A DNA stretch of 64,000 nt from an archaeon (GTDB lineage Archaea; B1Sed10-29; JAVZDC01): the NCBI GenBank assembly GCA_038874115.1, contig JAVZDC010000002.1, positions 110,531-174,530 of the forward strand, given 5' to 3'. Shown here piece by piece: positions 40,250-58,800 of this stretch (position 1 is its first letter; every line of letters starts with the position of its first letter). The position numbers and the translations under genes are program-made. The notes below the pieces were generated by a model. It saw nothing but the letters and a program-made list of their open reading frames with translations. It made no database searches and had not been told where the DNA came from.

Positions 40250-40280
40250 ACTTAATCCTTTCCATAATATATAAATTTTT

Positions 40281-40604: not shown

Positions 40605-40610
40605 AATTGT

Positions 40611-40974: not shown

Positions 40975-43900
40975 TTAATCCTTGAAGTTACTTATTAAAG
41001 TTTCCAATTCTCCTGAATCTTTTGCGAATATCTTGTATCCTTGTGAATCAGACCAAATTATTCCGCTTTTAGGAATGTCTGCTGTACTGCCCCACTTATT
41101 TTTAAATATTGTTTGCGCATTTTGTTCGCACGTAGAGATACTTGTACAAATTGCCACAAATACACTTTTTATGTTGTCTGGGGGCGTAGTTCCAGATTTC
41201 CATAAGAAATTAACTTCTGCAGGAGATACTTTTTCAATCTTCGCAATTAAATTTATTATATTATTGTTAAGTTTCTCCTTTACATCTCGCGAGCATTCTC
41301 CGTTTCCTTGAACGCAGATTCCTTGAATTGTTGAGGATGTTAATGTAAGATAATTCTCCCCTATAGAGTCTTCATCAATGTATTTTAAAGATAGTGTTCC
41401 TCTAAGAGTTTTTTCTAAATTACTTATTAATTCCTCTAATTCCCCTTTATTTTTTCCAATGATGTATGTGTTCCATCCTTTTCTAAATATTATGTTAGCT
41501 TCGTACCTTCCAAGTTTATCAGATACTAGATGACATGGAGCTTTCTTATCTTCTCCTTCATTGATTATAGCTGATTCGTTGCATATCTTCACTATGATAG
41601 TAGGACCCAACTCGATTTCATTTTTTTGAGTTATTTCTTTTAAAGTTACATCCGTGTTCCATTGTGCTTTTAAAGCTTTTCCTAACTTCTGCAAAATACC
41701 GTCCTTTTCCGAGCCCCCTATTCCTTCAAAGTACACATGTACATAGATTGCTGGTGTTGTCGAAGAACTTAACGATTCGTTAAGTACAGGCCAAAATGCT
41801 TGTACTCCTCTCACATCATTTTCATTTTCATCCACAATTTCCAATCCTGAAAGTCTTCCTGTAGAATCAAACGAATTTATTTCAACGCAGGAATCAGTTA
41901 TTTTATTTATTTTAAGCTGATATTCCCCTGCCCCTTCAATTCTAGCCCCATTGTTTATTAATACACATTTTTCTTTTCCAGAGGTACAATAACCGCATGA
42001 GCTCTGAGATGCCATTTCACTTATTATCACAAACTCCGCTTTAGAATATATTTCTGTAAATATTCTTTGAATATCTTGCGGTGTCGCGCCTTTTAAAGCC
42101 ACAGATTTGAAAGTCACTGGATTTGGACTTGAGAAATTGTCCGTTTTCTCTATAATAAATGCTAAAATTTGATCAAGAGAGCAAAAGTTTGTTTCACAGT
42201 CAAGAGGAAGACCATACTTCTGAATCTTTAAAGGTTTAAAGTATCCTTCAGAAATTTCTTCAACACTCGGAGCTTTTGCCATTATCGTAAGTCGAATCGT
42301 GTATGCGGAGCTTATTTTTTTATTTGACTTAAACTCCTTTGACGCGTTAATAGTAATGTTTATGTTATTTATTTCAGACGCGCCAGCTTCCAATGTTTTC
42401 CCAAAACTATATTTTATCTCCGCTCCTTGTGTGTATTGAGAAAATGAAGAAATATATCCACTTGGGGATGCTCCTCCAGTCCCTTCGACTACCACTTTGG
42501 TAATGTCCACTTCTACATCCGGGTCGCATTTTTTGAGAGTTAGAGATACGGGATTAGATTCGGTACAATTATTGTCACGTGGTGCTTCAAAGCTTGCTTC
42601 TTTTGTCATAACTTTAGATACTGAGATCAAACAAGAATGAGTTTCCCTTGTTGAAACGTCTAGATTGATTGATTTGGTTGTTGGAATTTCTAGACAAGGA
42701 CTTGCTACTTTTTTTATCTGGCCTTCCTTTAAATTATCTCCTGAAAGATTTATTTCTATTTTTGTTCCTGGGTATGCTCGTACTTGGTCATCAAAATAAA
42801 TCTCTATCCGATCTCTCTTATATTTGTAATTATTCGAATATTCTGAACTTTTAATTTGAATCGTTCTTCCATCCATTGTAATTTTTCCTTCTACATGGTA
42901 TTGTTTTGGATTTATAGGGGTATTCAAACCCTCTTTATATACTTTTATCGAAAAGTTAGTAGTTAAATCAGTTATTTTTTCAGGTTCTATTTCAATTCTT
43001 ATCGAAGCTTGTGCAGAATAGTTTATTTTGGTCTCAGCTACTTTGTTATTGTCGACAAAAGAATGAATTATCACTTGCGGAGGTATTTTAGCCTCTGCTT
43101 CAATCTTTACAATTATTTTTTCCCCAGTTCTCCAATCTTTTAAACTTAATTTAACATCTGTTTCATTCGCTTCGTATTCCGATTCATCAATAGTCGTAAG
43201 AGTATTGTTAAATTCTCTTAATACCATCGTGGTTAAAAATTCAGTAGTAATTCCAGATAAAGTATTGCTTGTAATACTTATCTCAGATGAACTTCTGGTT
43301 GAACCCTCGTTTATAAATGAAATTGTTAAGTTGTACTTAGGTTCATTTTCTTTAATCTCTACAGCGTTTGGAGAATAGGAGTTACCTTTATAGTTCACTT
43401 CTGCTTTAACCATTATTGTTTTGTCCTCCAAACCTGGCTCCAAATTGCTTTCTCGTGAGATATAAAAGAATATCTTTTTCGTCCCCTTTTTCGGATCGCT
43501 AACTTTCGCGTCTCCTTTATACCAAGTAGCAGAGTATTCCAAAGTTACATTATCGTTGAAACAAGTTGTTTTTACTCTTATAGGTACACGCACCTCTAAA
43601 GTAGTATTTCTATATTCATCTGGGTATCCGGATATTACATACGTTACGCCAGACACCTCTGTCGATTGTGTGAAATCAGTCGGCTCGACTCTTCCAAATT
43701 CTAAACATCCACTACGTTCCTTTATAGAAAATTCTGCTTTATCTACAGGTTCATTATTTAAATCTGGGAGGGAAACTAAGAAATGTAAAACATATTGTTC
43801 TCCTACTGAAAGACTTTCTTCAACATTCCCATTGGTTGCTCTATCAAAATAGACTGTAAAGTTTACGAATGCAAGCTTCAAATCTATTGAAACATCTTTA

Positions 43901-45797: not shown

Positions 45798-46601
45798 TTA
45801 GCAACTTGATGGTGTAATCGATATCGTGGTTGTTATGTATTCAATTGTTTGGTCTGGATTGGAATAACGGAATATTATTTTAGTTAATCCTTCTATTCCT
45901 TGGGAAATTCCAACTATTTCAACTCTTGATGCTTCGGCCTCTGCTTTCATTTGTCCGCAACTACCATCATTTTTAGCTGCAATGTATGATTTCTCCAATC
46001 TCTTACAAAGAGGAGCACTAGAAACCCAAGTTCTGCTTTCCGGCCCAATAAAGATCGTTAATTTATCTTTCTCATTATTTTTATTTTTAAAAGTAACTTT
46101 AAAAATGTCTTTCCCTTTAAATTTACTTCCATCTATTTCTATTTTAACCTTTCCTTCCGAGTCACAACTTAGTGTTATAGGTTTAATTTCACCTAAAGTC
46201 TTTGAAAGTTGGTCATAAAAATTAGCCGGATATTCTGGAGAATATTCTGTCGCACTTTCAACGCTAGACCCCATACCTTGATAGATTCCGTTTCCCCCTA
46301 AGGTTAAATCATTTTCTAACTTTCTTATAATCATGTATTTTAAATTCTCCGAGCTGCCATACTTGGAAAGGTCGAGCGTAAAATTAGAAGCTATCGCATT
46401 TTCAATTTGAGCGTAAATGTGGCTTTCAACAGTTGCTTTTATCATCTTTGCAGAATTACTTTGAAAAGAGTTTTCTTGGAAATTAATTAGACTTTTTGAT
46501 ACTCTTACATTATTCTCCACGACTACTACTGCTGTAAAACTTGCTATCAAAACCAGCAAGGTTCCAATCAAGGCACTAAAAAGAGAAAAACCTCTTCTCA
46601 T
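45798..46601 (-). CDS. prepilin-like protein (class III signal peptide), 267 aa
   Basis: N-terminus MRRGFSLFSALIGTLLVLIASFTAVVVV (basic, RG, hydrophobic helix), as in archaeal type IV pilin precursors. Confidence 0.6.
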   Translation of the reverse strand: MRRGFSLFSALIGTLLVLIASFTAVVVVENNVRVSKSLINFQENSFQSNSAKMIKATVESHIYAQIENAIASNFTLDLSKYGSSENLKYMIIRKLENDLTLGGNGIYQGMGSSVESATEYSPEYPANFYDQLSKTLGEIKPITLSCDSEGKVKIEIDGSKFKGKDIFKVTFKNKNNEKDKLTIFIGPESRTWVSSAPLCKRLEKSYIAAKNDGSCGQMKAEAEASRVEIVGISQGIEGLTKIIFRYSNPDQTIEYITTTISITPSSC

Positions 46602-46752: not shown

Positions 46753-47175
46753 CTAACATCCCTGTGGTAAAGTAGGTGTACCGCCTATGCCTACGACACA
46801 TTTATTAGTTCCACAAACAGCATAGACATCCACAGGTACATTTTTCTGCGGGGAGAATGTATTCTCATCGCAGTTTGCAATATTATTATTGATATTACTC
46901 GCGCATTCGAATTCTATATCTTTTCCCGCAGCTTCAACAAACTTTGAGGATCTAGCTGAATACGAGGTTCCAGTTTTTAATTTTACTGGAGTTGAACTTT
47001 TTTGAATATTGCAAGGTGAATTTGCTGCAGACTGAAGCAATGCTGCTACGGTTGTATCGAACTCTTGGCCAGGTACTGTTATTCCTCCAAGAATACTTAA
47101 TAAAATCGCTAAAATCATTACCGCAACTACCGCAGCAATCATAAGTTGGAACGTATCGAATGCTTGTCCTTTCAC
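46753..47175 (-). CDS. archaeal type IV pilin-like protein (class III signal peptide)
   Basis: N-terminus MKGQAFDTFQLMIAAVVAVMILAILLSILGG: KGQ motif then hydrophobic helix, matching the archaeal prepilin signal; Cys-containing C-terminal domain. Confidence 0.7.
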   Translation of the reverse strand: MKGQAFDTFQLMIAAVVAVMILAILLSILGGITVPGQEFDTTVAALLQSAANSPCNIQKSSTPVKLKTGTSYSARSSKFVEAAGKDIEFECASNINNNIANCDENTFSPQKNVPVDVYAVCGTNKCVVGIGGTPTLPQGC

Positions 47176-47190
47176 GCATTCACCTCCAAT

Positions 47191-47403
47191 TCACCATTTA
47201 TAATACGGACATATCTTACATTCTTCAGGTACTTGTTCAACAGTCCAAGGTTTTCCTATTAATTCTTTAACTTGCGGTGGGCAATCAGGGAAAGAACCAT
47301 AACAATTTGGAAACTTTTTTGCTTTTTTTATTTCTTCATAAATTTTTTCTCCTTCTTTTTTTCTTTTTATGATCGGTGTCCTTCTTCTTTTACCTCCACC
47401 CAT
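47191..47403 (-). CDS. hypothetical small basic Cys4 protein (70 aa)
   Basis: Highly basic N-terminus (GGGKRRRTPIIKRKK), four Cys (C-x5-C…C-x2-C); sits between two pilin genes. Confidence 0.45.
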   Translation of the reverse strand: MGGGKRRRTPIIKRKKEGEKIYEEIKKAKKFPNCYGSFPDCPPQVKELIGKPWTVEQVPEECKICPYYKW

Positions 47404-47443
47404 AACTTCACTACGTGTTTTTTATATAAAAATCTTTCTTTTT

Positions 47444-47842
47444 TTAAGAACAACTATCTGAGCAAAGATATATTGTACATCCTTGTTGTGAGTCGCACTT
47501 TGTAGATATTGGAATTTTCATATTGTATTTTGCAGTACAAAGGAATCCTTCACAATCTACTTTATTTCCGCACCTGTTCCTAATTCCTATAGATGTATCT
47601 GGGAAAAAATGTTGTATGCTTTTAGATGATATTGTTTCTCCTTTTTTTAGTTCAAAATCCCGAGATATGCATTGGGATGCTACTCTTACAGAATAAGCTT
47701 CCCCAACAATCTCTTTTAATAATGCTCCTGTTTCAAAAGGTTTTGGAGTAGAACTTATATATGCAAAGATTATTGCTGCTAAAGCGATAGCAAAAATTCC
47801 AGCAAGCATCATTTCAAAAATCGTAAAAGCTTGTCCTTTCAT
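47444..47842 (-). CDS. archaeal type IV pilin-like protein (class III signal peptide)
   Basis: N-terminus MKGQAFTIFEMMLAGIFAIALAAIIFAYI; paralogue of 46753..47175; overlaps the platform gene stop by 4 nt. Confidence 0.7.
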   Translation of the reverse strand: MKGQAFTIFEMMLAGIFAIALAAIIFAYISSTPKPFETGALLKEIVGEAYSVRVASQCISRDFELKKGETISSKSIQHFFPDTSIGIRNRCGNKVDCEGFLCTAKYNMKIPISTKCDSQQGCTIYLCSDSCS

Positions 47843-49881
47843 GCGATCCCTGTAATTAATAAAGAACTAAAGTACGTTGCGGCAAGGAAAAGAATGACAG
47901 ATATTGGTAAAGTCTTTGCAATGTTTATCTTTAAAGCAAGGTCGTTTTCCCCTTCCTCTATTTTACTTGTAAAATAGGTTAAAAGCAAAGTAATTTCAAC
48001 AACATAGATTCCAAGTAAAATTATGAAGAATTCAACACTTGGTAACTGCGAGACTTCAAACTTTCCAATACTAAAGAATCCAGGAATGTTTTTCATTTTG
48101 ATTCCAGTTTGTTGAGCAGACAAACCAGAAAGAGATTGAATTATTAATTTCTGCATGCTTCCAGTGATTCCAAGTACTAAAGGAGCAATTAGAAAAGCAA
48201 TCGATTTCATCATGGCAGTTATTTCTTCCAACATGTTTTTTATTTTTGTTTGTAATTTTCTCAAATCTTTTATTTGTAAAGAAAGAGATATAAGAGCTTT
48301 TGCTGCTTGTTGAACTCCTAAACTAGCAGCATCTAAAACAATCCTAAAACTGTTTTTTATAAAGTCTGAGTATACTTCTCTTAAAGATCCGTATGCAGGG
48401 TCAAAAAAAGCACTCTGAACAGTCATTCCCAAGTTTCTTATGTTTTCACTAGTTTTTGCAAAAACTTTTGCAATTTTTGTGTGTTTTAAAAAGTTAGCTG
48501 AATATTCCATCGCTTCTTCCAAAGGTCTATTTTCCCCAAGTCTTGAAGCAACAACATAGATCCCATCTTCAAATTCTCCTTCCATTGTCATTATTTCTAA
48601 CTGCAGTTTTCTTCTTTCGATAGAAATTCCGTAAAGATAGATTGAAACAAAAGCACTAAAACTTAAGAATACCCCTGCAATCCAACCAAAATGAACGTAT
48701 CCAGTCAAATCAGCATGAGTTTGTGAGTATTGCATAGCAAGGAATGGTTCCAAAATAAAGAAACAACAAAAGAAAATAGTAAATGCAACAATGGATGCAA
48801 TAAAGACAGCAGGTACTTCAGACTTACCTATCCTCATGTAACCTTTTTTTGGAAGTTTGGGAAGATTTTCCGGAATTTTTGGTGGCACGTATACAGGAGG
48901 TCTCATACTTAAAATGTTTTTAGCAAAGATCATCGTTCCAAAAGGAATCGCAGCAACATAAAGCCCAGTTATAAGCAAAGGATTGCTTAAAAAAGGCAAG
49001 TTTCCAATCATCGCTCCTATCGGTAAAAGAATTATAAGCATTAAAGGCAGTAGGACTCCAACATAGTAAAGGTAGATCGTTGGTTGTCTCATCTTTGTTA
49101 TGTACCCGTTCATTTCTTCAGAAAGGCCAGCTAAAACATCTTCTAAAGCCTTATCTAAAATTGCATGTCTCTTTCCTTCGTCTATTTCTATTATCGAAGA
49201 TCTTATTAACATCAAGGCATGTTTAAACTGTTCACTATAGTTTCCCCATTTATACGCTAAAGCATCTAACGCTTCCTCCATAGATCTATATATTCCAAAT
49301 TTTACATCCCAACTTAATTTCTTTAAATCTTCTGCAATCTTTCCCCTTCCATGCATTCCTGCAAACTCAACTGCCTTTTCCAAGTTTGGCGTTAGTTTCA
49401 TCGAAATTATAAGATAATTTACTATCTCGGGTATACTTAGCAAAGCTTCTATCTTTTGAGCTTTTGCTGCGTTTATTATATATCGGTTATAATAGTTTGC
49501 AAGAATGAAAGGAATTAATATTAAAACTGGAGCACACATCGTAAAAATAAACATGTCTAGCTCTTGGGTAATAAAAACCATGTATCCAAGAAAACCCAGG
49601 ATTGGCAAAACAAGTATTAAAGAGATTTGTGTTACAAAGATAGGAACAGCATTTACTTCCGCAGGAGTTAAAGGCCAACCTAAAAACTCTAGAGCAGAAG
49701 CAAATTCTTTATTTTTAAACTCATTTTTTGCTTTTACGTATTTTGCAGCCATTTTTGCCAATCTTATGTAAGAATTTTCTTTGATTTGTACTTTTGGTTT
49801 TTCTATAAGCTCTTTTGAAAATGCTTCTGCAAAACCTCCAAGCGTATTTTCTTCTTCAAACCTTCTTCTTCGCTCTCTCAA
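47839..49881 (-). CDS. type IV pilus / secretion membrane platform protein (FlaJ/TadC-like, two T2SS-F-type domains)
   Basis: 680 aa polytopic membrane protein with two cytoplasmic helical domains each followed by TM helices; immediately downstream of and overlapping the secretion ATPase gene. Confidence 0.7.
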   Translation of the reverse strand: MRERRRRFEEENTLGGFAEAFSKELIEKPKVQIKENSYIRLAKMAAKYVKAKNEFKNKEFASALEFLGWPLTPAEVNAVPIFVTQISLILVLPILGFLGYMVFITQELDMFIFTMCAPVLILIPFILANYYNRYIINAAKAQKIEALLSIPEIVNYLIISMKLTPNLEKAVEFAGMHGRGKIAEDLKKLSWDVKFGIYRSMEEALDALAYKWGNYSEQFKHALMLIRSSIIEIDEGKRHAILDKALEDVLAGLSEEMNGYITKMRQPTIYLYYVGVLLPLMLIILLPIGAMIGNLPFLSNPLLITGLYVAAIPFGTMIFAKNILSMRPPVYVPPKIPENLPKLPKKGYMRIGKSEVPAVFIASIVAFTIFFCCFFILEPFLAMQYSQTHADLTGYVHFGWIAGVFLSFSAFVSIYLYGISIERRKLQLEIMTMEGEFEDGIYVVASRLGENRPLEEAMEYSANFLKHTKIAKVFAKTSENIRNLGMTVQSAFFDPAYGSLREVYSDFIKNSFRIVLDAASLGVQQAAKALISLSLQIKDLRKLQTKIKNMLEEITAMMKSIAFLIAPLVLGITGSMQKLIIQSLSGLSAQQTGIKMKNIPGFFSIGKFEVSQLPSVEFFIILLGIYVVEITLLLTYFTSKIEEGENDLALKINIAKTLPISVILFLAATYFSSLLITGIA

Positions 49882-52144
49882 GAGCTTCCCTCCTAGCGAT
49901 AAGCGGTTTTACCTGGTTTTCTAAAAACCAGTCTTTCCATTCTTGAATTGCCATTTGATAATCAACCATTCCCAAATCTTCTCTCTGTCTTTCCAGTATT
50001 AAAAGCCAAGCATCATTAGCTGGAACAGTGTATTTCGCTTCCAATAATTCTGGTATTTGGTATTTATTCTTTTGGTCTACTGCAAATTGTTTTATTTCTG
50101 CCCTTGCGTTTATGTCTTCCCAGATTTGTTCAAAAGTTAGTCCTCTTCTTGCACTAATTCTTTTAAAAATCTCAGACTTTCTACAATTTTCTTCTAAAAC
50201 CTTAAAAGAATCTTTATCTACATTGTATTCTATAAGTTGCAAGAAACCATTTTCTTTTTCCGGATCTGAATACCAATGTTTTTCCACACTCGTTATTTCC
50301 ACAACTCTCCTATGTCTTTTCAAAGACCCCTTAAACCTTATTGGAGCACAAACTACACAAACGTCTGTTGCTTTGAAAGAAGTATTTGGAACTCCTAAAT
50401 CGTTTACGATTCTGTCCCATACTGAATATGCGGATTCTCCGTGGATAGTTCCCATAACTACGTTACCTACAGCACCAACTCTCATAGCTTCGTACAAAAC
50501 TAAAGCTTCTTTAGATCTAACTTCTCCAACTATCAATACTGAATCTCCAAGCCTTAAAGCAGTCCTTAATGCTTCTTCTGGCGGTACTTCAGCACTTGTT
50601 CTAGATACTGCTATTGCTGATTGCGTTTTTAATCTTTGAATGTTAAATCCAAGCCCTTTCATGAATTCGACTGGAAGTTCTAAAGTGTCTTCTAGAGTTA
50701 GAATTCTTAAACTTGGCAATATTTCCAACATTAAAGCTTGAAGAAGAGATGTTTTCCCTGCCCCTCTTGAACCAACAACAAGAGTGGATGCTTGCGCATC
50801 TATTAAATAAGATAATAAACCAGCTACTTTGCTATCTATCATTTTTACATCTATAAATTGTTGTAATGTCCACGGAGTTTCTTTATGCAATCTTAGTGCA
50901 AACGCAGTACCATCAGGGGATAAAGGTGGTCCAATAACTGCAATTCTTGTTTGTAAATCTCTTAAATCAAAATCCAAGACCGGATGGGCTTCATCAAAAG
51001 GTCTTCCAGAAAGGGCTCTAAACCTAGATACCAAAGTTTTTGCTTCTTCTTCAGTAAAAACAACGTTTGTTTGGCAAGAACCATATTCTCCATGCACAAC
51101 GTAGACAGGTTTGGTTCCAAGAGGAGCATCGATATAGACATCAGTTAACTTTCTATCAGAAAGCAACAATTCCAATATCCCGTAACCAACAGTATATCTG
51201 CAAACAATTCCAGCAATTTCCGAAGCTTCTTTTCCAGTAATTTTTATTCCATGTTTATTGGCCAAATCTATAATCGTTGTTTCATAAACTCCAAGCAAAT
51301 AGTTCCTTAGTTCTTCCGGATTAGCAAAATGTAATCCTTCAGGAGAATAAGTTGAAACAATATCTTTAGTCTTCGAAAGTAAAAAGTATTTTTCTGGAGG
51401 CAAGTTGTATTCTGGAGGGGCAATATAATAAAGATATTGAACTTTTGCTGGATGTTTGTATATATTTACAGTCGCATCTTTTACATAATATTGGTCCACT
51501 AATTCTATTTCTTCTGGAGTTGCGAAAAAAACTCTGGATGCAACAAAAGCAGGTTTTATTTGAGCTTCAAATAAACTATGATAAATAGTTCTTCCTGGCG
51601 GAATTCTCCCAAGCTTTTTTATAATTTCTTTTGTTTTTTGAATTAGAGTAGTTTTTTCAAAAGCAGCTAACATGAAATATAGTGTATTTAAGTATATGTC
51701 GCTACATTCTTTTTCTATTCCTTGAAGGCCGGCATTCCTTTCATTCTCTCTTTTCAAAGCTTCAACCAAAGTTAAATATGCTCGGAGAGGGTCTGTTTTT
51801 AAAAGATCTTGAGCAATGGAGACGACTAATGAATACCGTCCAGGAATTTCTCCTTCGCATTGAGGATGGCCAAGTCTTGAAGAATTCCACACTCCTTCCC
51901 TATAAAATAAGTTCCCCAATTCTCCGATTTCTTTAAGCATTTTTGTTTGTTCTTCAGAATATATTATTTCATAAACTTCAGCTAGAACAACCATGTCTGC
52001 ATTTGTTCTAGCCAACTTTTCTATAACTTCCCTCATGCATTGTGGAAAATCAGCAACAGAAGGGCCCCACTCGCTTCCTCTATAATCAATGATTAAATAC
52101 CTCTTTGTTCCTTCTGTTTTTATTGTGAAATCATGCGCAGCCAT
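49856..52144 (-). CDS. type II/IV secretion-system ATPase (FlaI/VirB11/PilB superfamily) with long N-terminal extension
   Basis: 762 aa; Walker A VVGSRGAGKTSLLQAL, downstream conserved Asp/Glu and His boxes typical of secretion ATPases. Confidence 0.85.
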   Translation of the reverse strand: MAAHDFTIKTEGTKRYLIIDYRGSEWGPSVADFPQCMREVIEKLARTNADMVVLAEVYEIIYSEEQTKMLKEIGELGNLFYREGVWNSSRLGHPQCEGEIPGRYSLVVSIAQDLLKTDPLRAYLTLVEALKRENERNAGLQGIEKECSDIYLNTLYFMLAAFEKTTLIQKTKEIIKKLGRIPPGRTIYHSLFEAQIKPAFVASRVFFATPEEIELVDQYYVKDATVNIYKHPAKVQYLYYIAPPEYNLPPEKYFLLSKTKDIVSTYSPEGLHFANPEELRNYLLGVYETTIIDLANKHGIKITGKEASEIAGIVCRYTVGYGILELLLSDRKLTDVYIDAPLGTKPVYVVHGEYGSCQTNVVFTEEEAKTLVSRFRALSGRPFDEAHPVLDFDLRDLQTRIAVIGPPLSPDGTAFALRLHKETPWTLQQFIDVKMIDSKVAGLLSYLIDAQASTLVVGSRGAGKTSLLQALMLEILPSLRILTLEDTLELPVEFMKGLGFNIQRLKTQSAIAVSRTSAEVPPEEALRTALRLGDSVLIVGEVRSKEALVLYEAMRVGAVGNVVMGTIHGESAYSVWDRIVNDLGVPNTSFKATDVCVVCAPIRFKGSLKRHRRVVEITSVEKHWYSDPEKENGFLQLIEYNVDKDSFKVLEENCRKSEIFKRISARRGLTFEQIWEDINARAEIKQFAVDQKNKYQIPELLEAKYTVPANDAWLLILERQREDLGMVDYQMAIQEWKDWFLENQVKPLIARREALERAKKKV

Positions 52145-52657
52145 TTTAACATTCCTCGTTCCGAATTCGTGAAAGCGACTTTTTTTACTTTTAAAATCTT
52201 GCTATTTTTTTCTATTTTTATAACTCTACTCTCTTTTATAAATCTTTATCCTCTTAAAGTCTTTGTGGCTAAAGGCGTCTCTTTTTTATTAACTCTTTTT
52301 GGTGTACCGCATGTTTTAATCTTCTCAAGCCCAGAGCCAAGCATTTTTGTAGATAATGTCGAAGCCCAAATAAAGGACTTATGTGTTGGACATATGGAAA
52401 TTGCGTTGATTTGTTCGATAATCTTAGCTTGTGATGATCGTTCTGTTAAATCTCGAGTTCTTGGTGCCTTTTGTTCTATTCCTTTTGTTTTTTTCTTAAA
52501 TCCTTTAAGAATCTCGGTCGTTTTGTTTTTTGGGCATTATTTCTCCTGGCCTTTTGCAGACTTTATTCATGATGTTCTTTTCAGGCTCACTCTTTTTATT
52601 GTAATTCTTATTTACTTTCTGATTTGGTATGTTTTATCCTGGAAGTTTAAGTTATAA
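52133..52657 (+). CDS. possible small polytopic membrane protein with Cys-Ser / Asn-x-x-Arg motifs (exosortase/archaeosortase-like?), or non-coding
   Basis: 174-aa ORF in the 550-bp divergent intergenic region; TM helices, EIALICSIILAC and FLNPLRISV. May be spurious (AT-rich DNA gives hydrophobic ORFs) or may start internally. Confidence 0.3.
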   Translation: MRSHFNIPRSEFVKATFFTFKILLFFSIFITLLSFINLYPLKVFVAKGVSFLLTLFGVPHVLIFSSPEPSIFVDNVEAQIKDLCVGHMEIALICSIILACDDRSVKSRVLGAFCSIPFVFFLNPLRISVVLFFGHYFSWPFADFIHDVLFRLTLFIVILIYFLIWYVLSWKFKL

Positions 52658-52696: not shown

Positions 52697-53833
52697 ATGT
52701 CAAAGAAAATAATTTCAAATGCTTTCTTACTTTTGGTTTTGGCGAGTGTAGGATTCGCTGGATTCCAGACAATTTCTCCTTCCGAAGGAGGGTTTGTTTT
52801 TACTGACTTTCAAGAAATGACGATGTCTGGGTTTGCAGATTTTCTTGCTGAGAAAGCTTTGGAAAAGAAAGGAACGTATTTTGTTCATATAACTTCTGCA
52901 GATTGTAAAATTAATTTAGATAACTTCCGCGACTTTGCTTCTTCTACAAACTATGTAACAGTTTCCAAATATTCTATTGAAGATACTTCTTCTGGCAAAT
53001 CGCAAGATACTTTTTATCCAGGGTATTATGTTTTTAGTGTGAAAGATAAGGGAAAGGAAACTGTAAGTATTTCTGGCAAGGCTTTGAAAAAGGAGAGTAC
53101 TAGTTTACCGGATAAAGAATGCATTAGCAAATACCAAGGAGTTAGAGCAGATCAATGGGCGGGTTTCGGAAAAGAAAATGCCGGAATTCTCTATAGTGCC
53201 AGTAATCTTGTATACCCTGAGGATCAAGGAGAGGAATGCGGAAATATAGTTGCATGGTGGGGGGCGGCACAGAGACTCACCGGTATGGGGGCTGATCGGG
53301 CGGGGTGCGATACCAATGAGGGTGTGCCTATGCCAAGAGTCTATTACCGAGTGGTGCAAGATATTTTAGGGTTAGAACCTAAAGATTGTAGTGGCACCTT
53401 GGAAGATTGTTGTATATCTCATGCTACAGAGTGGATGAAGAACAATATTCGATATGATTCTTTCAGCGTTTTAAAGTACAACGATACCGCGATTTATTAT
53501 GACGGTGTTAATATTCCTTTAACTTATTATAATTATTATGCCACGGTTAAACCAAAAGTAGATAAAGGAACAGAAATGAATCCCAAGTGTTTTGGTTCGG
53601 GAATTCAGCGCTTTTGGTGGATCGTGGATTATTTATACTGTGTAAAGGGTTCAAAATGCATGGAGTCTGATGGTTCAAGGTTCGTTGCGCCTTGCAGTGC
53701 TAAATCCGGTTATGGAACATGCTGTCATGGAGATGTCCTTTATAGTGATGATGGAAAACCGCACTGTTGCCCAAGCGGTTACTCCAAAGTCATAGATTTT
53801 GGAAATGGAAATGTTCGGTGCTTTAAGAGTTAA
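52697..53833 (+). CDS. secreted cysteine-rich protein (378 aa)
   Basis: N-terminal signal peptide (KKIISNAFLLLVLASVGFAG), many Cys including CC pairs (DCCISHA, TCCHGD, PHCCPSG); locally elevated GC. Confidence 0.7.
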   Translation: MSKKIISNAFLLLVLASVGFAGFQTISPSEGGFVFTDFQEMTMSGFADFLAEKALEKKGTYFVHITSADCKINLDNFRDFASSTNYVTVSKYSIEDTSSGKSQDTFYPGYYVFSVKDKGKETVSISGKALKKESTSLPDKECISKYQGVRADQWAGFGKENAGILYSASNLVYPEDQGEECGNIVAWWGAAQRLTGMGADRAGCDTNEGVPMPRVYYRVVQDILGLEPKDCSGTLEDCCISHATEWMKNNIRYDSFSVLKYNDTAIYYDGVNIPLTYYNYYATVKPKVDKGTEMNPKCFGSGIQRFWWIVDYLYCVKGSKCMESDGSRFVAPCSAKSGYGTCCHGDVLYSDDGKPHCCPSGYSKVIDFGNGNVRCFKS

Positions 53834-53864: not shown

Positions 53865-54407
53865 ATGAAAGGACAAGAATCTGCACCAATTGAGCTTCTT
53901 TTAGGGACGATAATCCTAAGCTTTGTGTTAGTTTTGGTTTATTTTACTTACCAAAATCTTTCTGGAAAGCAATATTCTGCAGCATTACAAGTTGCATTTT
54001 CAAAACTTGGAAGTGAGTTGGAATTTGTGTACCAAGGAGCTGTGGGTACAAAAAGAGTACTTTCTTTAGATTTTTCTCCTTTAGAGGGCACAGGAAAAAA
54101 GACAGCGATAAAAATTCTTCATGGGCACAAGGAGACATGTTTAAAACAAACTGGAAAAGAAAACTGTTGGCAATTGATCGCCGTACAAGGTGAAGAAGGA
54201 CAAGCAGGAGTTTTATATTCTTTAGCATTAAACATTCCAACATCAATCGCGATAAAATTCAAGAATGCAACAGGAGACGAAGCGGTATGTGAAAATGAAT
54301 ACAGTTCTTGGAGCTCTCCTATACCTTGCCAATGGAAACCTACAAGATATACTTTGACTATAGAAAAGACAAGCAATAATGAAATAATAATTAGTCAAGT
54401 GAGTTAA
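53865..54407 (+). CDS. prepilin-like protein (class III signal peptide)
   Basis: N-terminus MKGQESAPIELLLGTIILSFVLVLVYF (KGQ + hydrophobic helix). Confidence 0.6.
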   Translation: MKGQESAPIELLLGTIILSFVLVLVYFTYQNLSGKQYSAALQVAFSKLGSELEFVYQGAVGTKRVLSLDFSPLEGTGKKTAIKILHGHKETCLKQTGKENCWQLIAVQGEEGQAGVLYSLALNIPTSIAIKFKNATGDEAVCENEYSSWSSPIPCQWKPTRYTLTIEKTSNNEIIISQVS

Positions 54408-54408
54408 T

Positions 54409-54921
54409 TTGCGAGGAATATCTGTCTGGCTTTTTTCAAAAATAATAATGCTTCTTTTCGTATTTTTAGCATTCGCATTAATGACGTCTTTTTATGTCTC
54501 AGTGAAAGAAAAAGAATTTACAGATTCTGCATATTTCTTTACTGAACAATTAAAAGAAAGAATTCAGATGATTGCTTTTGCAGACGTTCTTGAATCTCAG
54601 ACTCAGTTTTATTTACCAAAAACTCTTCCAGAAGAAAGGCAAGAAAAAGGAAGATTTTATACTTTAACTATAGGGAAAAAAGAAGATGTTTTCTATATTC
54701 TTCTTTCTTGGGGGACAGAAAAATCTCCGAAAAAATATTTAGTTGCTCAAGGTTTTAATATAAGTAAGGAATATAAGGTTAATAAGCAAGATTCTTGTAA
54801 GATAACTGTCCAATCATCGGAATATATTTGGTTAAATATCTCTAAGAAAGAAAAAGAGTTGACAATCCAAAAATGTAAGTCATCGACATCCTGTGACCAA
54901 CCAAAATGTGAGGGTTCATGA
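54409..54921 (+). CDS. prepilin-like protein (class III signal peptide)
   Basis: N-terminus MRGISVWLFSKIIMLLFVFLAFALM (RG + hydrophobic helix). Confidence 0.55.
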   Translation: MRGISVWLFSKIIMLLFVFLAFALMTSFYVSVKEKEFTDSAYFFTEQLKERIQMIAFADVLESQTQFYLPKTLPEERQEKGRFYTLTIGKKEDVFYILLSWGTEKSPKKYLVAQGFNISKEYKVNKQDSCKITVQSSEYIWLNISKKEKELTIQKCKSSTSCDQPKCEGS

Positions 54922-55304
54922 AAGGGTACATTGGTCCTTTAGGGGATGATATTCCAGGAATAATTTCCATAGTTTTAGCATTCTCAATTTTCTTTGCTGG
55001 TTTTTCTATAGCAATGACTACTTTGAATGAAAAAACTGTTGTTATTCAAAAGTTTAAGGGAACCATGGAAATTGCGAAAGCAATAAATTCAAAAACCGTT
55101 CTTCCAGAGAATTTGGAAGATTTACGGAAAGATGCACAGAGAATTGCAACTACAAGAGCTTTACAGTTTAATCTTTCTTATAAAGATACAAGAAGTCAAA
55201 TGGTTTGTGGAGAAAAAGCATTTTATCTTACATACTTTGTTGCAAGATATAATCAAGGTCAAACAGAAATAGTTCCAGATATATTGACAATTTGCGTTTG
55301 GTGA
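54918..55304 (+). CDS. prepilin-like protein (class III signal peptide)
   Basis: N-terminus MKGYIGPLGDDIPGIISIVLAFSIFFAGF; start overlaps the preceding gene stop by 4 nt. Confidence 0.5.
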   Translation: MKGYIGPLGDDIPGIISIVLAFSIFFAGFSIAMTTLNEKTVVIQKFKGTMEIAKAINSKTVLPENLEDLRKDAQRIATTRALQFNLSYKDTRSQMVCGEKAFYLTYFVARYNQGQTEIVPDILTICVW

Positions 55305-55308
55305 ATGA

Positions 55309-55824
55309 ATGAATAAAGCCCAAGCAGCTCTTTTCGACGCTCTTTTCTTTATGTTTTTAGCAGCTGGAGCAGCTTACTTATTACTTTTCGTGGCTGCAAA
55401 CTATGCTGCGGATACACAAAATCAAGTAGCTTTCACGTATAATTATGATTATCTCTCAAACGTTTTTGTAGCGTTACATTATTTAAAAGATGATTCTGGA
55501 AACTTTTTTTGGTTAAAATTTGAAGAAAAATTGGGGAAAGAAGAACAAAGTTGCAATTATTTGAAAGATTATTTTGGTTTGACAAAGGTTACTTATGATC
55601 CAAACGATCATGAAAAAGCAAAACCTATTTTAGAACTTTTGAATGCTTCAAGTCCAAGTGATTGTTTTGTTTTGGAAATAAGGGAAAATGGGTGCAAGAT
55701 ATACGTTTCCGGAAGTGAGGCTACTTGCGAAGAAAGCAAAGAAAGAAATCAAGTAATTGCTTATTCCACCGGAATTTCTAAAGGTCTTAAATCTTATACT
55801 TTAACTTTGAAGGTTTTGCGCTGA
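55309..55824 (+). CDS. prepilin-like protein (class III signal peptide)
   Basis: N-terminus MNKAQAALFDALFFMFLAAGAAYLLLF (K-A-Q + hydrophobic helix). Confidence 0.5.
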   Translation: MNKAQAALFDALFFMFLAAGAAYLLLFVAANYAADTQNQVAFTYNYDYLSNVFVALHYLKDDSGNFFWLKFEEKLGKEEQSCNYLKDYFGLTKVTYDPNDHEKAKPILELLNASSPSDCFVLEIRENGCKIYVSGSEATCEESKERNQVIAYSTGISKGLKSYTLTLKVLR

Positions 55825-58800
55825 GAATCTTTTTCTTATTATAAGAATTCCTAAAATTACTGCAATCAGGAAAGGTAAGAATTCTATCCCTTCAGGAACG
55901 CTTGGTAACTGAGCCAAGATGCTTGGTTTTTCAGAAGGTTTTGTTGGCCCACCGCCAGCTACTCTACTCGTGCCTAAGAAGTTTTGCATAGGTATTATTC
56001 CTCCCCCAGCCCAACCGCCTCCAAGAGTCTGGAAACTTGGGTTTAAGTTAAGTGGGAATTCATTACTAATCGATATTTTTCCTGATTCAGCATTGAATAT
56101 TATGGACCCTTGCGGGCTTCCAAACAACCATACTGGGAATGAACTAACAGGCTTTCCGTCTTTTGAAATTTCTACAACTGGTTCTCCGTTTGGTCCAGTT
56201 TTAACTTTTAATTCCATCCCATCGTCAAATTTTATTACCCCATCTTTTATCTCTTTTATATCATGACATTCTTCTTTGCCTTCTTTGTTCCAGCATAATT
56301 GATTATCTTTTATGTAAATAGATTCGTTTTTGTCTAATGAAACAATCCTGTCAAAGCACATTTCTTCCAACAATGCTTGCAGTTGAGCTCTTTCATCCGG
56401 GTCTCTTGTTTCAGCTACAAGTTTAAATCCTTTTAACCCATCAGTTTCGCAAGGATCTGTAATTCTCCAATTCTCAAAGTTTGTGCTTTCATCAACGTAT
56501 AAATCATAGAAGAATAAGTGCATTACATTCCTTCCATATGTTTTAGATTCTTCTTTTGCCCTGCCGATTACTGTTTTCTCGTTTTCAAACTCAATATAGC
56601 TTCTAGAGTCCATAGTAAATAAACAAGAACCTGCTTGTATGCTTCCATTCCTATAAACAGTTATTTCTTGGCCAACAGACAATACTTTTCCAAGCCCGTG
56701 AACTTCTTCTCCACATTTTGATTCTTTCAAAAATCTAACATAAAATCCATCTTTTTCTTTCCAAATGTACCCTTCTTTTGTGTTTATGAATTGGAATCCT
56801 CCAAAGGCGTTTTTAATTATTTTTTCTTTGTATGCTTCTTTTGCGTTTACTCCTCCAAACAATTTCAAAATAGCATTTTTAACGCAATCATTCTCGATAG
56901 TTACAGTATCATCAGAACGTATTTTGAATAATGTATCATCTTTCATGAATACGTTTATTACTTGGAGTGGTAATCCTAAATATCCTCGATCGTTGTGCCA
57001 TCTTAATCCTAATAACTCTGGCCCTTCAAGGATCAAATTACCCTTTTCATCATAAAGGTAATATCCTTTTCCTTCTATGCATTTGAATTTCCCTTCTTCT
57101 ACTTGTTGGCAAAATTGTATTGGGCAGTCTTCGCCAGTATTGAAGTCAAATATTGTGTCTGGATCAAAGTGGAATTGATAGATTTCAGGCATGAAATAAT
57201 TCATGTTGTTTGGAGGGTTTATTTTTCCTTGAATGTTTAAAATTTGAGTATAAGTAGATGCGCTCACAATCTCAGATATTTTATTTGCCGCTTCTGGTGC
57301 AAAGCCTTGGAGTAAAGTTCCTAAACTTTGTACTGCAGGTTTAAGTTGTGAAGATAATTGAGCTGTTAAGTCATCAGCCTCTTCCTTCAATTCTCCTCTG
57401 TCAACTTGTTGGAATGCTAAAAGAGAAAACTTAGTTTCTTTACATCTTTTTAAGCGTTCTAATCCTTCTGCTTTTGCTTCTTCATATTGTCTTTGGGCTT
57501 CATAAGACCATAGACTAGTAGCTATTGATGCAATTGTTGTAGCAGGTTTCACTATAGCTCCGACTCCACTGTACGTAGCTACCGTATCTACGCTTGTCGC
57601 AGCAAGGTCAGCTATAATGGCCGCATAGTACCATCCGAACTTCTCATCTACTTTTCCTTCAACATCCACAAGAGTTTTTTCACAATCTTCTCCAGATGCG
57701 TATGCTGCCAATGGATCAGAGATTGGCGCCCATCTAACTTCTTTCATATGTTCTGATATTTCTTGCATAACTCTACCTTGTTGTTGTAGACCAGCGGCAA
57801 TAGCGATAGCGACAAGTGCTCTTGATGCAGGAGTGATTCCTCCAAAGGTAGGTAGTGGGACTATAAAAGAGGTTAAAAGAATCGATTTTCCAACATCCCC
57901 CCAGTTAGGCATTTGTGCAGCCACTTTCGAAGCAGGTAATTGAGCCCAATCTTCTGTTGATGGGGCCCAACCACTCATGTTTACATTCGTGATATCCATC
58001 CCAATACTTGAGACAAACGTTTTTCCAAAATAGAATAAGCTCGATGGATGTTCATACAAATAATAAGCTGTTTCTAACGGATTTCCTACGGTAGCGAACA
58101 TTATTTTTCCCGGGCTTGCTTCTGTTATTCCGAAAACATTAAGTGGTCTTGCAGAAGTTAAAGCAGTTGTAAGTCCTTGTTCTTGGTCTGCTATAAAAAC
58201 ATAAGATTGCTTTCCACTTTGTACCTTTTGTGCAATTAATGGTATATCTTTCCATTCAATACCAAATACAAGGTTAGTGGATTTTATCCAAGCACTTGGA
58301 GGTCTGAAATCTTCTCCTTCAATTCCATCTTCGGCAGCATATTTTAGTTTTGTTACAACGATGTCAAGATATGAAGATTGATTTATGAGTTTTCGAGTAG
58401 GAGTTAACTCAAATTCTAAAGCATGAACTAATATTTCTCCTTTTGGTTCTTGGGTAAGAGCCCAAGCTCCAACAAGCAACATTGCAGCTCTGTGCATCAA
58501 AGCTTGAGCATGCGCCAGAGTTAAAGCGTTTAGCACATACCTACCTCCATTTATCAGGAACGTCACCCCAGCTCTGTAAAGACCTTCCTCAGCTTTAATG
58601 ATTATACCCTTTTTCGTACCTTTTTCAACTTCTAGATACCTGCTCAAATCGATAGTTTTCTTTCCTATAGAAATTTTAGATCTCCCTTCAGCAATGAGTT
58701 TTATCTCTTCATCCGATGGTTGCTCAATTATTTTTCTAACAAATTTGAGTCTAGGGTCCTTCACCAACCCACCCTCAGAGTTTTTCAGTTCCGATATATA

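What the first reader, a model, noticed from the sequence alone, without database searches (positions are those of the whole stretch)
52133..52657. Candidate minimal exosortase-like membrane ORF in the divergent pilus promoter region, sharing LICS…N-x-R motifs with the 60697..61155 protein
The 174-aa ORF contains EIALICSIILAC followed ~30 residues later by FLNPLRISV; the unrelated-looking 152-aa protein at 60697..61155 has ALIICSLICLPF followed ~30 residues later by KINRILK. A shared Cys-Ser then Asn/Arg spacing in two small polytopic proteins, both next to surface-protein operons, may indicate a common catalytic core. Alternatively the 52133 ORF is a spurious hydrophobic ORF within a 550-bp divergent regulatory region.
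Basis: inference. Interest (0 to 1): 0.45.

Follow-up and report, generated by a model that had tools for sequence, protein, structure and literature searches.

The report
Pilus-linked small archaeosortase gene, DPANN archaeon
The 174-codon ORF is a real gene for a small archaeosortase-family membrane enzyme, already annotated as such in GenBank, which sits head-to-head with a type IV pilus ATPase in many DPANN archaea, and it is unrelated to the 152-aa protein it was compared with.

Summary
The ORF at 52133..52657 (+) is a real gene. It passes the curated cut-offs of TIGR04178 (42.2 bits against 23) and Pfam Exosortase_EpsH (38.7 against 25.7). It has 210 homologous clusters, a pLDDT-95 model, and coding signal only in its own frame. 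GenBank already names the identical 174-aa protein "archaeosortase/exosortase family protein".

The invariant residues are C84 (DLCVG), E89, N123-x-x-R126 (NPLRI) and H146. C94 of "LICS" occurs only in this sequence. The 152-aa protein at 60697..61155 shows no relationship by BLASTP, Pfam, NCBIfam or the family HMM.

The protein reaches no named subfamily cut-off (ArtA-F, pacearchaeosortase, Xrt types).

What is new is the context. In 45 of 80 species-representative Micrarchaeota/Iainarchaeota loci the gene lies near this pilus ATPase. In 43 it is upstream and divergent, and in 22 it directly abuts. It nearly always accompanies a giant (1,500-2,800 aa) surface protein.

The most likely substrate is the cluster's 1441-aa protein (55801..60126, -). 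Its orthologues all end in L-P-x-x-P, a transmembrane helix and an Arg/Lys cluster. Substrate and chemistry are inferred, not shown.

The parts
52133..52657 (+). Gene for a 174-aa archaeosortase/exosortase-family membrane protein. An alternative GTG start at 52169 gives 162 aa. Signature codons: Cys84 52382-52384 (TGT), Glu89, Asn123 52499-52501, Arg126 52508-52510, His146 52568-52570.
   Evidence: TIGR04178 42.2 bits (cut-off 23) and PF09721 38.7 bits (cut-off 25.7). 210 homologous clusters. Invariant columns. AF2 pLDDT 95.3. Only frame +0 has positive codon score. GenBank name.
49856..52144 (-). Type IV pilus-like secretion ATPase (FlaI/TadA/VirB11 superfamily), 762 aa, divergent from the sortase gene. 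Its start codon overlaps the sortase ATG by 12 nt.
   Evidence: NCBIfam FlaI/TadA-type hits. PF00437 in the source's gene calls. 53-69% identical orthologues in 80 GTDB genomes. Sortase upstream and divergent in 43 of them.
47839..49881 (-). TadC/FlaJ-like polytopic platform protein, 680 aa.
   Evidence: Weak T2SSF hit, 20 bits against 25.2. 42-48% identical orthologues next to the ATPase in L002 and L010.
46753..47842 (-). Two pilin-like genes (47444..47842 and 46753..47175) with class III signal peptides (MKGQAF...).
   Evidence: N-terminal sequences. Orthologues in L010 and L011.
45798..46601 (-). 267-aa pilin-like protein with N-terminus MRRGFSLFSALIGT. In most relatives its orthologue lies directly downstream of the sortase gene.
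   Evidence: BLAST to L009, L010, L015, L016, L018-L021. N-terminal motif shared with L002-L014 proteins.
40975..45684 (-). Giant (1569-aa) surface protein. It has an N-terminal cytoplasmic segment plus one TM helix (..EKKGIPSLPVF-TM), then CarboxypepD_reg, SpaA-like and Ig-like domains. It is the most constant neighbour of this sortase subfamily.
   Evidence: Pfam PF13620 56.9 bits and PF17802 34.3 bits. Homologues found in 25 related loci; 24 of them carry the sortase in the fetched stretch, and the exception, L052, has only 48 nt upstream of the ATPase. Downstream of the sortase in about 27 loci.
38619..40973 (-). Six small (103-120 aa) membrane proteins following the giant gene. The same series follows the giant gene in L011.
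   Evidence: ORF list. L011 18648-20564. Similarity judged by eye from the sequences, not scored.
52697..53833 (+). 378-aa secreted Cys-rich protein immediately downstream of the sortase. It has an N-terminal signal-like helix and no C-terminal anchor. Lineage-specific.
   Evidence: No Pfam or NCBIfam hit. No BLAST homologue in 87 related loci.
53865..55824 (+). Four small pilin-like genes (180, 170, 128 and 171 aa) with class III-type N-termini, co-directional with the sortase.
   Evidence: Orthologues in L010 and L011 lie behind the TadC gene.
55801..60126 (-). 1441-aa surface protein, the best candidate substrate. It has an N-terminal signal and a C-terminal tripartite tail LPSVPEGIEF - LPFLIAVILGILII - RKR (tail = 55804..55908).
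   Evidence: Ten orthologous tails aligned: L-P-x-x-P is kept in nine, L027 has V-P-x-x-P, and the two prolines are invariant; TM and basic cluster follow. All co-occur with the sortase.
60107..60697 (-). 196-aa protein with signal peptide and C-terminal TM plus RFKRSTKK. Paired with the 1441-aa gene here and in L011/L015. It has no LPxxP motif.
17879..21727 (-). 1282-aa parallel beta-helix surface protein. Its tail YPAPEDKLEF - ILTVLLTIFFLCL - HNKKE (17882..17998) resembles the 1441-aa tail. Second candidate substrate, outside the cluster.
   Evidence: Pfam Beta_helix 145 bits and NosD 108 bits. Tail. Resemblance by eye only, no statistics.

Best explanation
Position 52133..52657 encodes a small archaeosortase-family enzyme, a polytopic membrane cysteine protease/transpeptidase with the family's invariant Cys84, Arg126 and His146. 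It belongs to a subfamily that is not yet named. That subfamily is a built-in component of a conserved DPANN (Micrarchaeota/Iainarchaeota) surface-appendage gene cluster. The cluster holds a type IV pilus-like ATPase, a TadC-like platform, about 6-7 pilins, a pilin-like 'RGFSLF' protein, a giant N-terminally anchored adhesin-like protein, and a roughly 1,400-1,600-aa protein with a C-terminal anchor.

Proposed mechanism, by analogy with Haloferax ArtA. After Sec export, the 1441-aa protein is held in the membrane by its C-terminal helix. The sortase recognises the L-P-x-x-P motif at the outer end of that helix and cleaves there through a Cys84 thioester. It then transfers the protein to an acceptor, either a membrane lipid or another surface component, and the TM-RKR stub is discarded.

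Shown: family membership, the signature residues, that the gene is real, the conserved synteny, and the conserved tripartite tail.
Inferred: which protein is the substrate, where it is cut, and what the acceptor is.
For: Family:
- TIGR04178 42.2 bits against cut-off 23, and PF09721 38.7 against 25.7.
- All 50 aligned relatives hit TIGR04178.
- C84, E89, N123, R126, H146, F150 and W165 are invariant in 50 of 50 sequences.
- The Cys-to-Arg spacing of 42 matches ArtA's C173-R214 spacing of 41. Both ArtA residues are essential by mutagenesis (PMC9263693).

The gene is real:
- 210 clusters at E<1e-3 among 1.84 billion representatives.
- AF2 pLDDT 95.3 and pTM 0.85.
- Codon score is positive only in frame +0.
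- GenBank annotation.

Linkage to the cluster:
- Looking from the sortase side, 9 distinct lineages all have the pilin-like and giant genes within 10 kb, and 7 of 9 have the ATPase and/or its TadC-like partner within 10 kb.
- Looking from the ATPase side, 45 of 80 species-level loci carry the sortase. In 43 it is upstream and divergent, and in 22 it lies within 400 bp of the ATPase start.
- 24 of 25 loci with a giant-protein homologue and 8 of 8 loci with a 1441-family homologue carry the sortase.

Substrate:
- LPxxP plus TM plus basic tail is conserved across 10 orthologues. The linker before the motif is not conserved.
- The motif is over-represented in 50-aa tails: 11 observed against 3.5 expected. 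Seven of the 11 belong to this family.

Precedent: the small archaeosortase ArtE is required for natural transformation in M. maripaludis (PMC10133366). The same paper states that earlier work found type IV-like pilus components essential for transformation.
Against: - No experiment exists.
- The tail matches no named sorting-domain model. Best scores are Heimdall-CTERM E 0.32 and PEF-CTERM E 1.7.
- In L010 and L030 a 25-45-aa acidic insert separates LPSTP from the helix. That is atypical for a sorting signal.
- The Micrarchaeota-type loci (L002, L004, L006, L008) show no C-terminally anchored large protein within 10 kb.
- The gene most constantly next to the sortase is the giant protein, which has no C-terminal helix.
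- 14 ATPase loci with at least 4 kb of upstream sequence lack the sortase.
- LPxxP conservation is seen only within one orthologous family, so it could be structural rather than a signal.
Confidence: 0.55

Rival explanations
1. The sortase acts on, or together with, the giant protein and the pilin-like protein encoded next to it in most lineages. It might process their N-terminal '[IVL]-P-x-x-P + TM' anchor, or it might serve as an assembly factor of the pilus-like machine. On this view it is not a C-terminal sorting enzyme.
For: The giant gene follows the sortase within 0-3.6 kb in about 27 loci, and directly (42-104 nt) in 7 of them. The giant N-terminus carries a conserved G-[IV]-P-[ST]-L-P immediately before its only TM helix, which resembles the LPSVP of the 1441-aa tail. 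No prepilin peptidase (A24) is encoded in the window.
Against: That motif lies on the cytoplasmic side of a type II anchor. The reading favoured here, from the positive-inside rule and the AF2 helices, puts Cys, Arg and His near the outer leaflet, but it depends on treating helix 39-56 as not membrane-spanning. All characterised family members use C-terminal signals (PMC6098224). The N-termini look like ordinary class III signals, [KR/x]-G|, that a PibD/FlaK peptidase elsewhere in the genome could cut. Only 64 kb of the genome was seen.
Confidence: 0.2
2. It is a general housekeeping archaeosortase for surface proteins scattered over the genome (an S-layer-like protein, or the beta-helix protein at 17879..21727). 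Its place beside the pilus ATPase is conserved synteny without a specific functional tie.
For: ArtA-type enzymes serve several unlinked substrates (PMC6098224). The 1282-aa protein 30 kb away has a similar tail. In L004 and L008 the sortase is not near the ATPase.
Against: The divergent head-to-head arrangement persists while sortase identity falls to about 30% and across at least two DPANN phyla. Co-occurrence with the giant and 1441-family genes is nearly perfect.
Confidence: 0.2
3. One reading: the sortase ORF and the 152-aa protein at 60697..61155 share a Cys-Ser ... Asn/Arg catalytic core.
For: Both are small polytopic proteins near surface-protein genes. Both contain 'ICS' followed about 30 residues later by N and R.
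Against: BLASTP finds no alignment of those regions. The 152-aa protein has no exosortase hit at E<=10. The family HMM without filters does not report it at E<=100. C94/S95 are not conserved in the family, and the 152-aa protein has N-R rather than N-x-x-R. It has no homologue in 87 related loci.
Confidence: 0.02
4. Spurious hydrophobic ORF inside a divergent promoter region.
For: AT-rich sequence (33% GC). The ORF start overlaps the ATPase start. One gene caller trimmed it to 162 aa.
Against: Curated HMM cut-offs are passed. There are 210 homologous clusters with invariant residues. The position is conserved in 43 species. The AF2 model is high-confidence. Coding potential is frame-specific.
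Confidence: 0.01

Closest known systems
Archaeosortase A (ArtA, HVO_0915) of Haloferax volcanii with PGF-CTERM substrates
   Same: Same superfamily signature (TIGR04178/PF09721). Invariant Cys and Arg at equivalent spacing (42 against 41 residues). Presumed recognition of a motif + TM + basic C-terminal tail on large surface proteins.
   Different: ArtA is much larger. The full exosortase model TIGR02602 is named '8TM_EpsH', and this protein covers only its C-terminal positions 95-236 of 241; here there are about 5 helices in 174 aa. No hit to the ArtA model TIGR04125 was listed at E<=10. The candidate motif is LPxxP, not PGF. The gene is embedded in a type IV pilus-like cluster, whereas the reviews read here describe ArtA as serving substrates such as the S-layer glycoprotein; ArtA's own gene neighbourhood was not examined.
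Small archaeosortases ArtB (VPXXXP-CTERM), ArtD, ArtE and pacearchaeosortase (NCBIfam models of 150-167 positions)
   Same: Same 'minimal' size class and architecture. The window protein aligns end to end with these models (ArtB profile 6-150 of 156, ArtD 9-142 of 150).
   Different: Scores are far below every curated cut-off: ArtB 32.4 of 150, ArtD 21.3 of 125, pacearchaeosortase 15.7 of 80, and ArtE not listed. None of the 50 relatives was identified as a named subfamily member. The taxonomic range differs (Micrarchaeota/Iainarchaeota), as does the candidate signal.
M. maripaludis ArtE (MMJJ_17200), required for natural transformation
   Same: A small archaeosortase-family protein tied genetically to a process that the same paper says needs type IV-like pili (PMC10133366). 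It is the only experimental link found between this enzyme class and pilus-related biology.
   Different: Different subfamily. The tie there is a phenotype, not gene adjacency. Substrates are unknown in both cases.
Gram-positive sortases (class A/C) that anchor LPXTG proteins and polymerise pili
   Same: Works like it in outline: a Cys/His/Arg transpeptidase acting on a motif + TM + basic tail. The candidate motif even begins with L-P. Association with pilus genes.
   Different: No sequence or fold relationship. There is no Sortase hit in Pfam, and the protein is polytopic rather than a single-anchor beta-barrel. The pili here are type IV-like, not sortase-polymerised.

Membership tests
Exosortase/archaeosortase superfamily (TIGR04178 signature; Pfam PF09721) | Score above the curated HMM cut-off | tested here: met
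   TIGR04178 42.2 bits against 23. PF09721 38.7 bits against 25.7.
Exosortase/archaeosortase superfamily (TIGR04178 signature; Pfam PF09721) | Invariant Cys, Arg and His at the ends of successive TM helices | tested here: met
   C84, R126 and H146 are present in 50 of 50 aligned relatives. They lie at or near helix ends in the AF2 model.
Exosortase/archaeosortase superfamily (TIGR04178 signature; Pfam PF09721) | Polytopic integral membrane protein | tested here: met
   Hydropathy analysis. AF2 shows five long helices plus a beta-hairpin loop.
Exosortase/archaeosortase superfamily (TIGR04178 signature; Pfam PF09721) | Cognate proteins with a C-terminal tripartite signal (motif, TM helix, basic cluster) in the same genome | tested here: inconclusive
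   The 1441-aa protein and its orthologues end in LPxxP-TM-R/K, and the 1282-aa protein has a similar tail. However, the motif matches no named model and is documented in only one orthologous family.
Exosortase/archaeosortase superfamily (TIGR04178 signature; Pfam PF09721) | Proteolytic or transpeptidase activity on that signal | not testable with these tools
   Needs biochemistry or genetics.
Named archaeosortase subfamilies ArtA, ArtB, ArtC, ArtD, ArtE, ArtF, pacearchaeosortase, heimdallarchaeosortase | Score above the subfamily's curated cut-off | tested here: not met
   Best scores are ArtB 32.4 of 150, ArtD 21.3 of 125 and pacearchaeosortase 15.7 of 80. The others are not listed at E<=10.
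Named bacterial exosortases (XrtA-Y, EpsH 8TM) | Score above cut-off, and the 8-TM architecture | tested here: not met
   8TM_EpsH 29.5 of 105.55, covering only the C-terminal half of the profile (95-236 of 241). XrtM 22.7 of 125. XrtG 11.2 of 102.75.
Type IV prepilin peptidase (Peptidase A24, PibD/FlaK) | Pfam/NCBIfam A24 hit with two catalytic Asp | tested here: not met
   No A24 hit for this ORF at E<=10.
Exosortase family, as claimed for the 152-aa protein at 60697..61155 | Any detectable similarity to exosortase profiles or to the 174-aa protein | tested here: not met

The most novel reading that the evidence does not exclude
This archaeosortase subfamily is a dedicated part of a DPANN type IV pilus-like attachment organelle. 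It cuts the LPxxP-anchored ~1,400-aa protein and covalently joins it to the pilus, to the giant SpaA/Ig-domain protein, or to a lipid at the pilus base. That would be an archaeal counterpart of sortase-decorated pili, used by these episymbionts to hold on to host cells.
Probability: 0.12. Interest if true: 0.75.

Novelty: new member of a known kind. Interest (0 to 1): 0.4.

Why it matters
At the level of the original finding the result is ordinary. The ORF is a bona fide archaeosortase-family gene that GenBank's pipeline already names, and the proposed kinship with the 152-aa protein is chance.

The context is the useful part. Micrarchaeota and Iainarchaeota are tiny, host-dependent archaea whose attachment machinery is poorly understood. 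Here a sortase-type enzyme is wired head-to-head to a pilus ATPase and travels with a giant adhesin-like protein and an LPxxP-tailed surface protein across dozens of species.

That gives three things. It defines an unnamed archaeosortase subfamily with a candidate cognate signal. It offers a concrete hypothesis for the unexplained requirement of ArtE in archaeal transformation, a process reported to need type IV-like pili. It names specific proteins and residues (C84, R126, H146, LPSVP) to test in co-culture systems such as Ca. Micrarchaeum.

Tried and rejected
1. Word-indexed homologue search with the single protein found only itself. The exhaustive HMMER scan was needed.
With the single protein it found nothing in GTDB genomes. 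The problem was solved by searching with the neighbouring ATPase instead.
4. Named C-terminal sorting-domain models do not recognise the tails.
5. A homologue search for the 1441-aa protein gave only a 94%-identical MAG copy. Orthologues came from the ATPase-anchored loci instead.
6. Idea tested: the 378-aa protein is a split-off C-terminal module of the giant protein. There is only a weak C-terminus-to-C-terminus Cys-pattern match to the L011 giant (E 0.1) and no BLAST hit in 87 loci. Not supported.
7. A shared 'PE..EF' motif between the 1441-aa and 1282-aa tails was considered. Orthologues show the conserved element is LPxxP, not EF.
9. The Haft 2012 and Abdul Halim 2018 papers are not held. 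The catalytic-residue facts were taken from reviews PMC9263693 and PMC6098224.
10. Rfam scan of 51500-53200 found nothing relevant.
11. A literature search for a described link between archaeosortases and DPANN or type IV pili loci found none. The Makarova 2016 census does not mention sortases. This is absence of evidence only.
Full report
**1. What is at the coordinates**

The window is an AT-rich (34% GC) archaeal chromosome segment. It carries split RNA polymerase subunits, EF-1alpha, EF-2 and family-B DNA polymerase. It lies back-to-back with a 762-aa FlaI/TadA-type secretion ATPase at 49856..52144 (-). Downstream of it come a 378-aa Cys-rich secreted protein and four small pilin-like genes.

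A Logan assembly holds the same sequence, with 2 mismatches over the 20,489 bases fetched. There the gene was called from the internal GTG as 162 aa with Pfam PF09721.

**2. Is it a gene, and of what family**

- NCBIfam gives TIGR04178 'exosortase/archaeosortase family protein' at 42.2 bits (cut-off 23, E 7e-11, residues 79-165).
- Pfam gives Exosortase_EpsH at 38.7 bits (gathering score 25.7). The match covers residues 13-167 and the C-terminal 155 positions of the 254-position model.
- An exhaustive HMMER scan of 1.84 billion cluster representatives returns 210 proteins at E<1e-3 and 73 at E<1e-10. Nearly all are 160-220 aa.
- In an alignment of 50 of them, C84, E89, N123, R126, H146, F150 and W165 are invariant. 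L83, G86, R108, G111, I127 and Y162 are nearly so.
- All 50 match TIGR04178.
- With that alignment AlphaFold2 gives pLDDT 95.3 and pTM 0.85. The model has helices 9-35, 39-56, 87-99, 105-136 and 139-171, a beta-hairpin loop at 61-79, and a one-turn helix at 82-85 carrying C84.
- A codon-usage log-odds score trained on the window's long genes is positive only in the annotated frame: +0.165 bits per codon against -0.13 or lower for the other five frames. The ATPase and a control membrane gene behave the same way.
- No Rfam family matches the region.
- GenBank holds the identical 174-aa protein as 'MAG: archaeosortase/exosortase family protein [archaeon]' (MEM3412234.1 and others).

The 'spurious ORF in a 550-bp regulatory region' alternative is excluded. 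The 550 bp are the gene.

**3. The motif claim**

The cysteine is wrong. C94 of 'LICS' occupies a column that is L/A/I/F in the other members, and S95 is kept in 5 of 50. The invariant cysteine is C84 in 'DLCVG'.

Reviews of the Haloferax work state that ArtA C173, R214 and R253 are essential (PMC9263693). The C84-R126 spacing of 42 residues matches the C173-R214 spacing of 41. This is an inference, because I could not align ArtA itself.

The 152-aa protein at 60697..61155 fails every test:
- BLASTP aligns only unrelated segments.
- There is no exosortase hit at E<=10 in NCBIfam or Pfam.
- It is not reported by an unfiltered hmmsearch with the family HMM at E<=100, while the true gene scores 181.6 bits.
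- It has 'I-N-R', not N-x-x-R.
- It has no homologue in 87 related loci.

The resemblance is a chance match between hydrophobic sequences.

**4. Which archaeosortase**

None of the named ones. Scores against curated cut-offs are: ArtB 32.4 of 150, 8TM_EpsH 29.5 of 105.55, XrtM 22.7 of 125, ArtD 21.3 of 125, pacearchaeosortase 15.7 of 80 and XrtG 11.2 of 102.75. Relatives give the same scatter of weak hits.

Small (150-170 position) archaeosortase models already exist, so the 'minimal' size is not new. The subfamily is unnamed.

**5. Context: the informative part**

*Seen from the sortase side.* Loci for nine distinct lineages were fetched: the window (L001 is the same sequence), L002, L004, L006, L008, L009, L010, L011 and L014. 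All contain, within 10 kb, two partners:
- a pilin-like protein with an N-terminus such as RGFSLFxPLVGT or RAFIAAPLIGT;
- a giant protein of 1,500-2,450 aa.

The giant protein's conserved N-terminus reads Y..IEDKWYD.LD....KGIPVY..DP.E..GIPSLP followed by its single TM helix. The window's giant protein is at 40975..45684 and carries CarboxypepD_reg and SpaA-type domains above Pfam cut-offs. Seven of the nine lineages also have the ATPase and/or its TadC-like partner within 10 kb. In the window, L009, L010 and L011 the ATPase is directly divergent from the sortase. ATPase identity to the window's copy is 55-69%.

*Seen from the ATPase side.* An alignment of six ATPases retrieved 80 species-representative GTDB loci. 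They are labelled Micrarchaeota, Iainarchaeum (Diapherotrites), Norongarragalinales and AR10, and the nearest are 69% identical 'Ca. Micrarchaeota archaeon'. The family HMM gave these results:
- 45 of 80 loci contain the sortase.
- 43 of those have it upstream of the ATPase and divergent from it.
- 22 have it within 400 bp of the ATPase start.
- 12 of the 35 loci without it have less than 1 kb of upstream sequence, so they could not be assessed.
- 14 have at least 4 kb of upstream sequence and do lack it.

The giant gene lies 0-3.6 kb downstream of the sortase in about 27 loci. Of 25 loci with a BLAST-detectable giant homologue, 24 carry the sortase, as do 8 of 8 with a homologue of the 1441-aa protein. 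The one exception, L052, has only 48 nt upstream of the ATPase, so the sortase position was not sampled.

In the window the block 'pilin-like protein, giant protein, six small membrane proteins' (45798..46601, 40975..45684, 38619..40973) has moved to the end of the minus-strand ATPase operon. The four pilins that follow TadC in L010 and L011 now follow the sortase.

I found no paper describing this linkage. The 2016 census of archaeal type IV pili does not mention sortases.

**6. Candidate substrate**

Family members studied so far act on a motif + TM helix + basic cluster, usually at the C-terminus (PMC6098224). Among the window's cluster genes, two end that way:
- the 1441-aa protein at 55801..60126 (-), ending ...ILAQLPSVPEGIEF-LPFLIAVILGILII-RKRFSAQNLQS;
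- the adjacent 196-aa protein.

Ten orthologues of the 1441-aa protein from the related loci were aligned over their last 80-120 residues. The linker is variable. The two prolines of L-P-x-x-P are invariant and the leucine nearly so. Examples are LPSVPEG, LPWTPEN, LPWTPTE, LPSIPPG, LPSVPTE and LPSLPED. A helix and an R/K cluster follow.

LP[SWT]xP occurs in the last 50 residues of 11 of 1,186 ORFs, against 3.5 expected from its overall density. Seven of the 11 are this family.

Weaknesses:
- It is a single orthologous family.
- Two members (L010, L030) have a 25-45-aa acidic insert between motif and helix.
- No named CTERM model matches.
- The Micrarchaeota-type loci show no such protein within 10 kb.

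The 1282-aa beta-helix protein at 17879..21727 has a similar tail, YPAPEDKLEF-TM-HNKKE. This was compared by eye only.

**7. Mechanism proposed**

The enzyme is a Cys84/Arg126/His146 membrane transpeptidase. By the positive-inside rule both termini are basic and the loops 57-82 and 134-147 are acidic. The reading that fits best is therefore N-in/C-in, with helix 39-56 not crossing the membrane and all three signature residues near the outer leaflet.

The enzyme would cut the exported 1441-aa protein at or near LPSVP and hand it to a lipid or a surface acceptor, as ArtA does with PGF-CTERM proteins.

The main rival is that its real partner is the giant and pilin-like pair that is its most constant neighbour. 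Their '[IV]PxxP' motif sits on the cytoplasmic side of an N-terminal anchor and looks like an ordinary class III signal, which argues against it. No A24 prepilin peptidase is encoded in this window, but only 64 kb was seen.

One experimental precedent ties a small archaeosortase to pilus-related biology. M. maripaludis ArtE is required for natural transformation, and the same paper says that earlier work found type IV-like pilus components essential for it (PMC10133366).

**8. Start codon**

ATG 52133 overlaps the ATPase ATG (52144, minus strand) head-to-head by 12 nt: ATGCGCAGCCAT reads M-R-S-H on one strand and M-A-A-H on the other. The same geometry recurs in L015, L016, L017, L018 and L029, and NCBI uses this start. 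However, the ATG is the reverse complement of the ATPase's His4 codon, so its conservation may be incidental. GTG 52169 remains possible.

**9. Verdict**

The ORF, its hydrophobicity and the NPLR motif are real. The catalytic Cys was misassigned and the shared motif is spurious.
It is an archaeosortase-family protein, and it has no kinship with the 152-aa protein.
- At family level this is already annotated knowledge. As a subfamily it is a new member of a known kind.
- Its conserved and apparently undescribed coupling to a DPANN type IV pilus-like cluster, together with a candidate LPxxP sorting signal, makes it moderately interesting and directly testable.

Noticed in passing
window 52133-52144: The sortase ATG and the divergent ATPase ATG overlap head-to-head by 12 nt (ATGCGCAGCCAT). 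The same -11 geometry occurs in five related genomes (L015, L016, L017, L018, L029). It implies that each promoter lies inside the other gene or that the transcripts are leaderless. The conserved ATG may simply mirror the ATPase His4 codon.
   Followed up: partly
window 40975-45684 (-); L009, L011, L014 to L090: The giant proteins (1,500-2,800 aa) share a roughly 45-aa conserved cytoplasmic N-terminal segment (Y..IEDKWYD.LD....KGIPVY..DP.E..GIPSLP) before their single TM helix. It matched no Pfam family in the scan at E<=0.1. The [IV]P[ST]LP just before the helix echoes the LPSVP of the 1441-aa tail.
   Followed up: partly
window 38619-40973 (-); L011 18648-20564: A run of six small (about 100-120 aa) membrane proteins follows the giant gene in both genomes. 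The three scanned had no Pfam hit. Function unknown.
   Followed up: no
window 52697-53833 (+): The 378-aa secreted Cys-rich protein directly after the sortase has no family hit and no homologue in 87 related loci. Its C-terminal CC...CCP.G...C pattern weakly resembles the C-terminus of the L011 giant protein (E 0.1).
   Followed up: partly
window 17879-21727 (-): A 1282-aa parallel beta-helix (NosD-like) surface protein has a tail YPAPEDKLEF-TM-HNKKE similar to that of the 1441-aa protein. It is a possible second sortase substrate outside the cluster.
   Followed up: partly
L014 5584-6897; L044 13782-14324; L045 13677-15173: A different conserved C-terminal tail, AGF[DN]WT[LV]P - TM - [GA]T[RK]KK, occurs on secreted proteins near the pilus ATPase in Micrarchaeota-type loci. 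It may be another sorting signal.
   Followed up: no
protein P0099 (1102 aa): A relative in which the sortase domain (residues about 24-184) is fused to about 900 further residues. P0051 (289 aa) and P0035 (282 aa) also carry extensions.
   Followed up: no
window 63276-63944 (-): A second T2SSF-domain (TadB/C-like) protein (46.5 bits) lies at the window's end. It suggests another secretion or pilus locus just beyond the window.
   Followed up: no
L082 (DAOWAC010000102.1): A 3.7-kb contig binned as 'Chloroflexota bacterium' carries this archaeal ATPase (54% identity). It is probably a binning error.
   Followed up: no
window 60697-61155 (-): The 152-aa five-helix membrane protein is an orphan. 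It has only sub-threshold Pfam noise (TctB 17.3 bits against 29.1) and no homologue in related loci. It is the first gene of the 152/196/1441-aa minus-strand run.
   Followed up: yes
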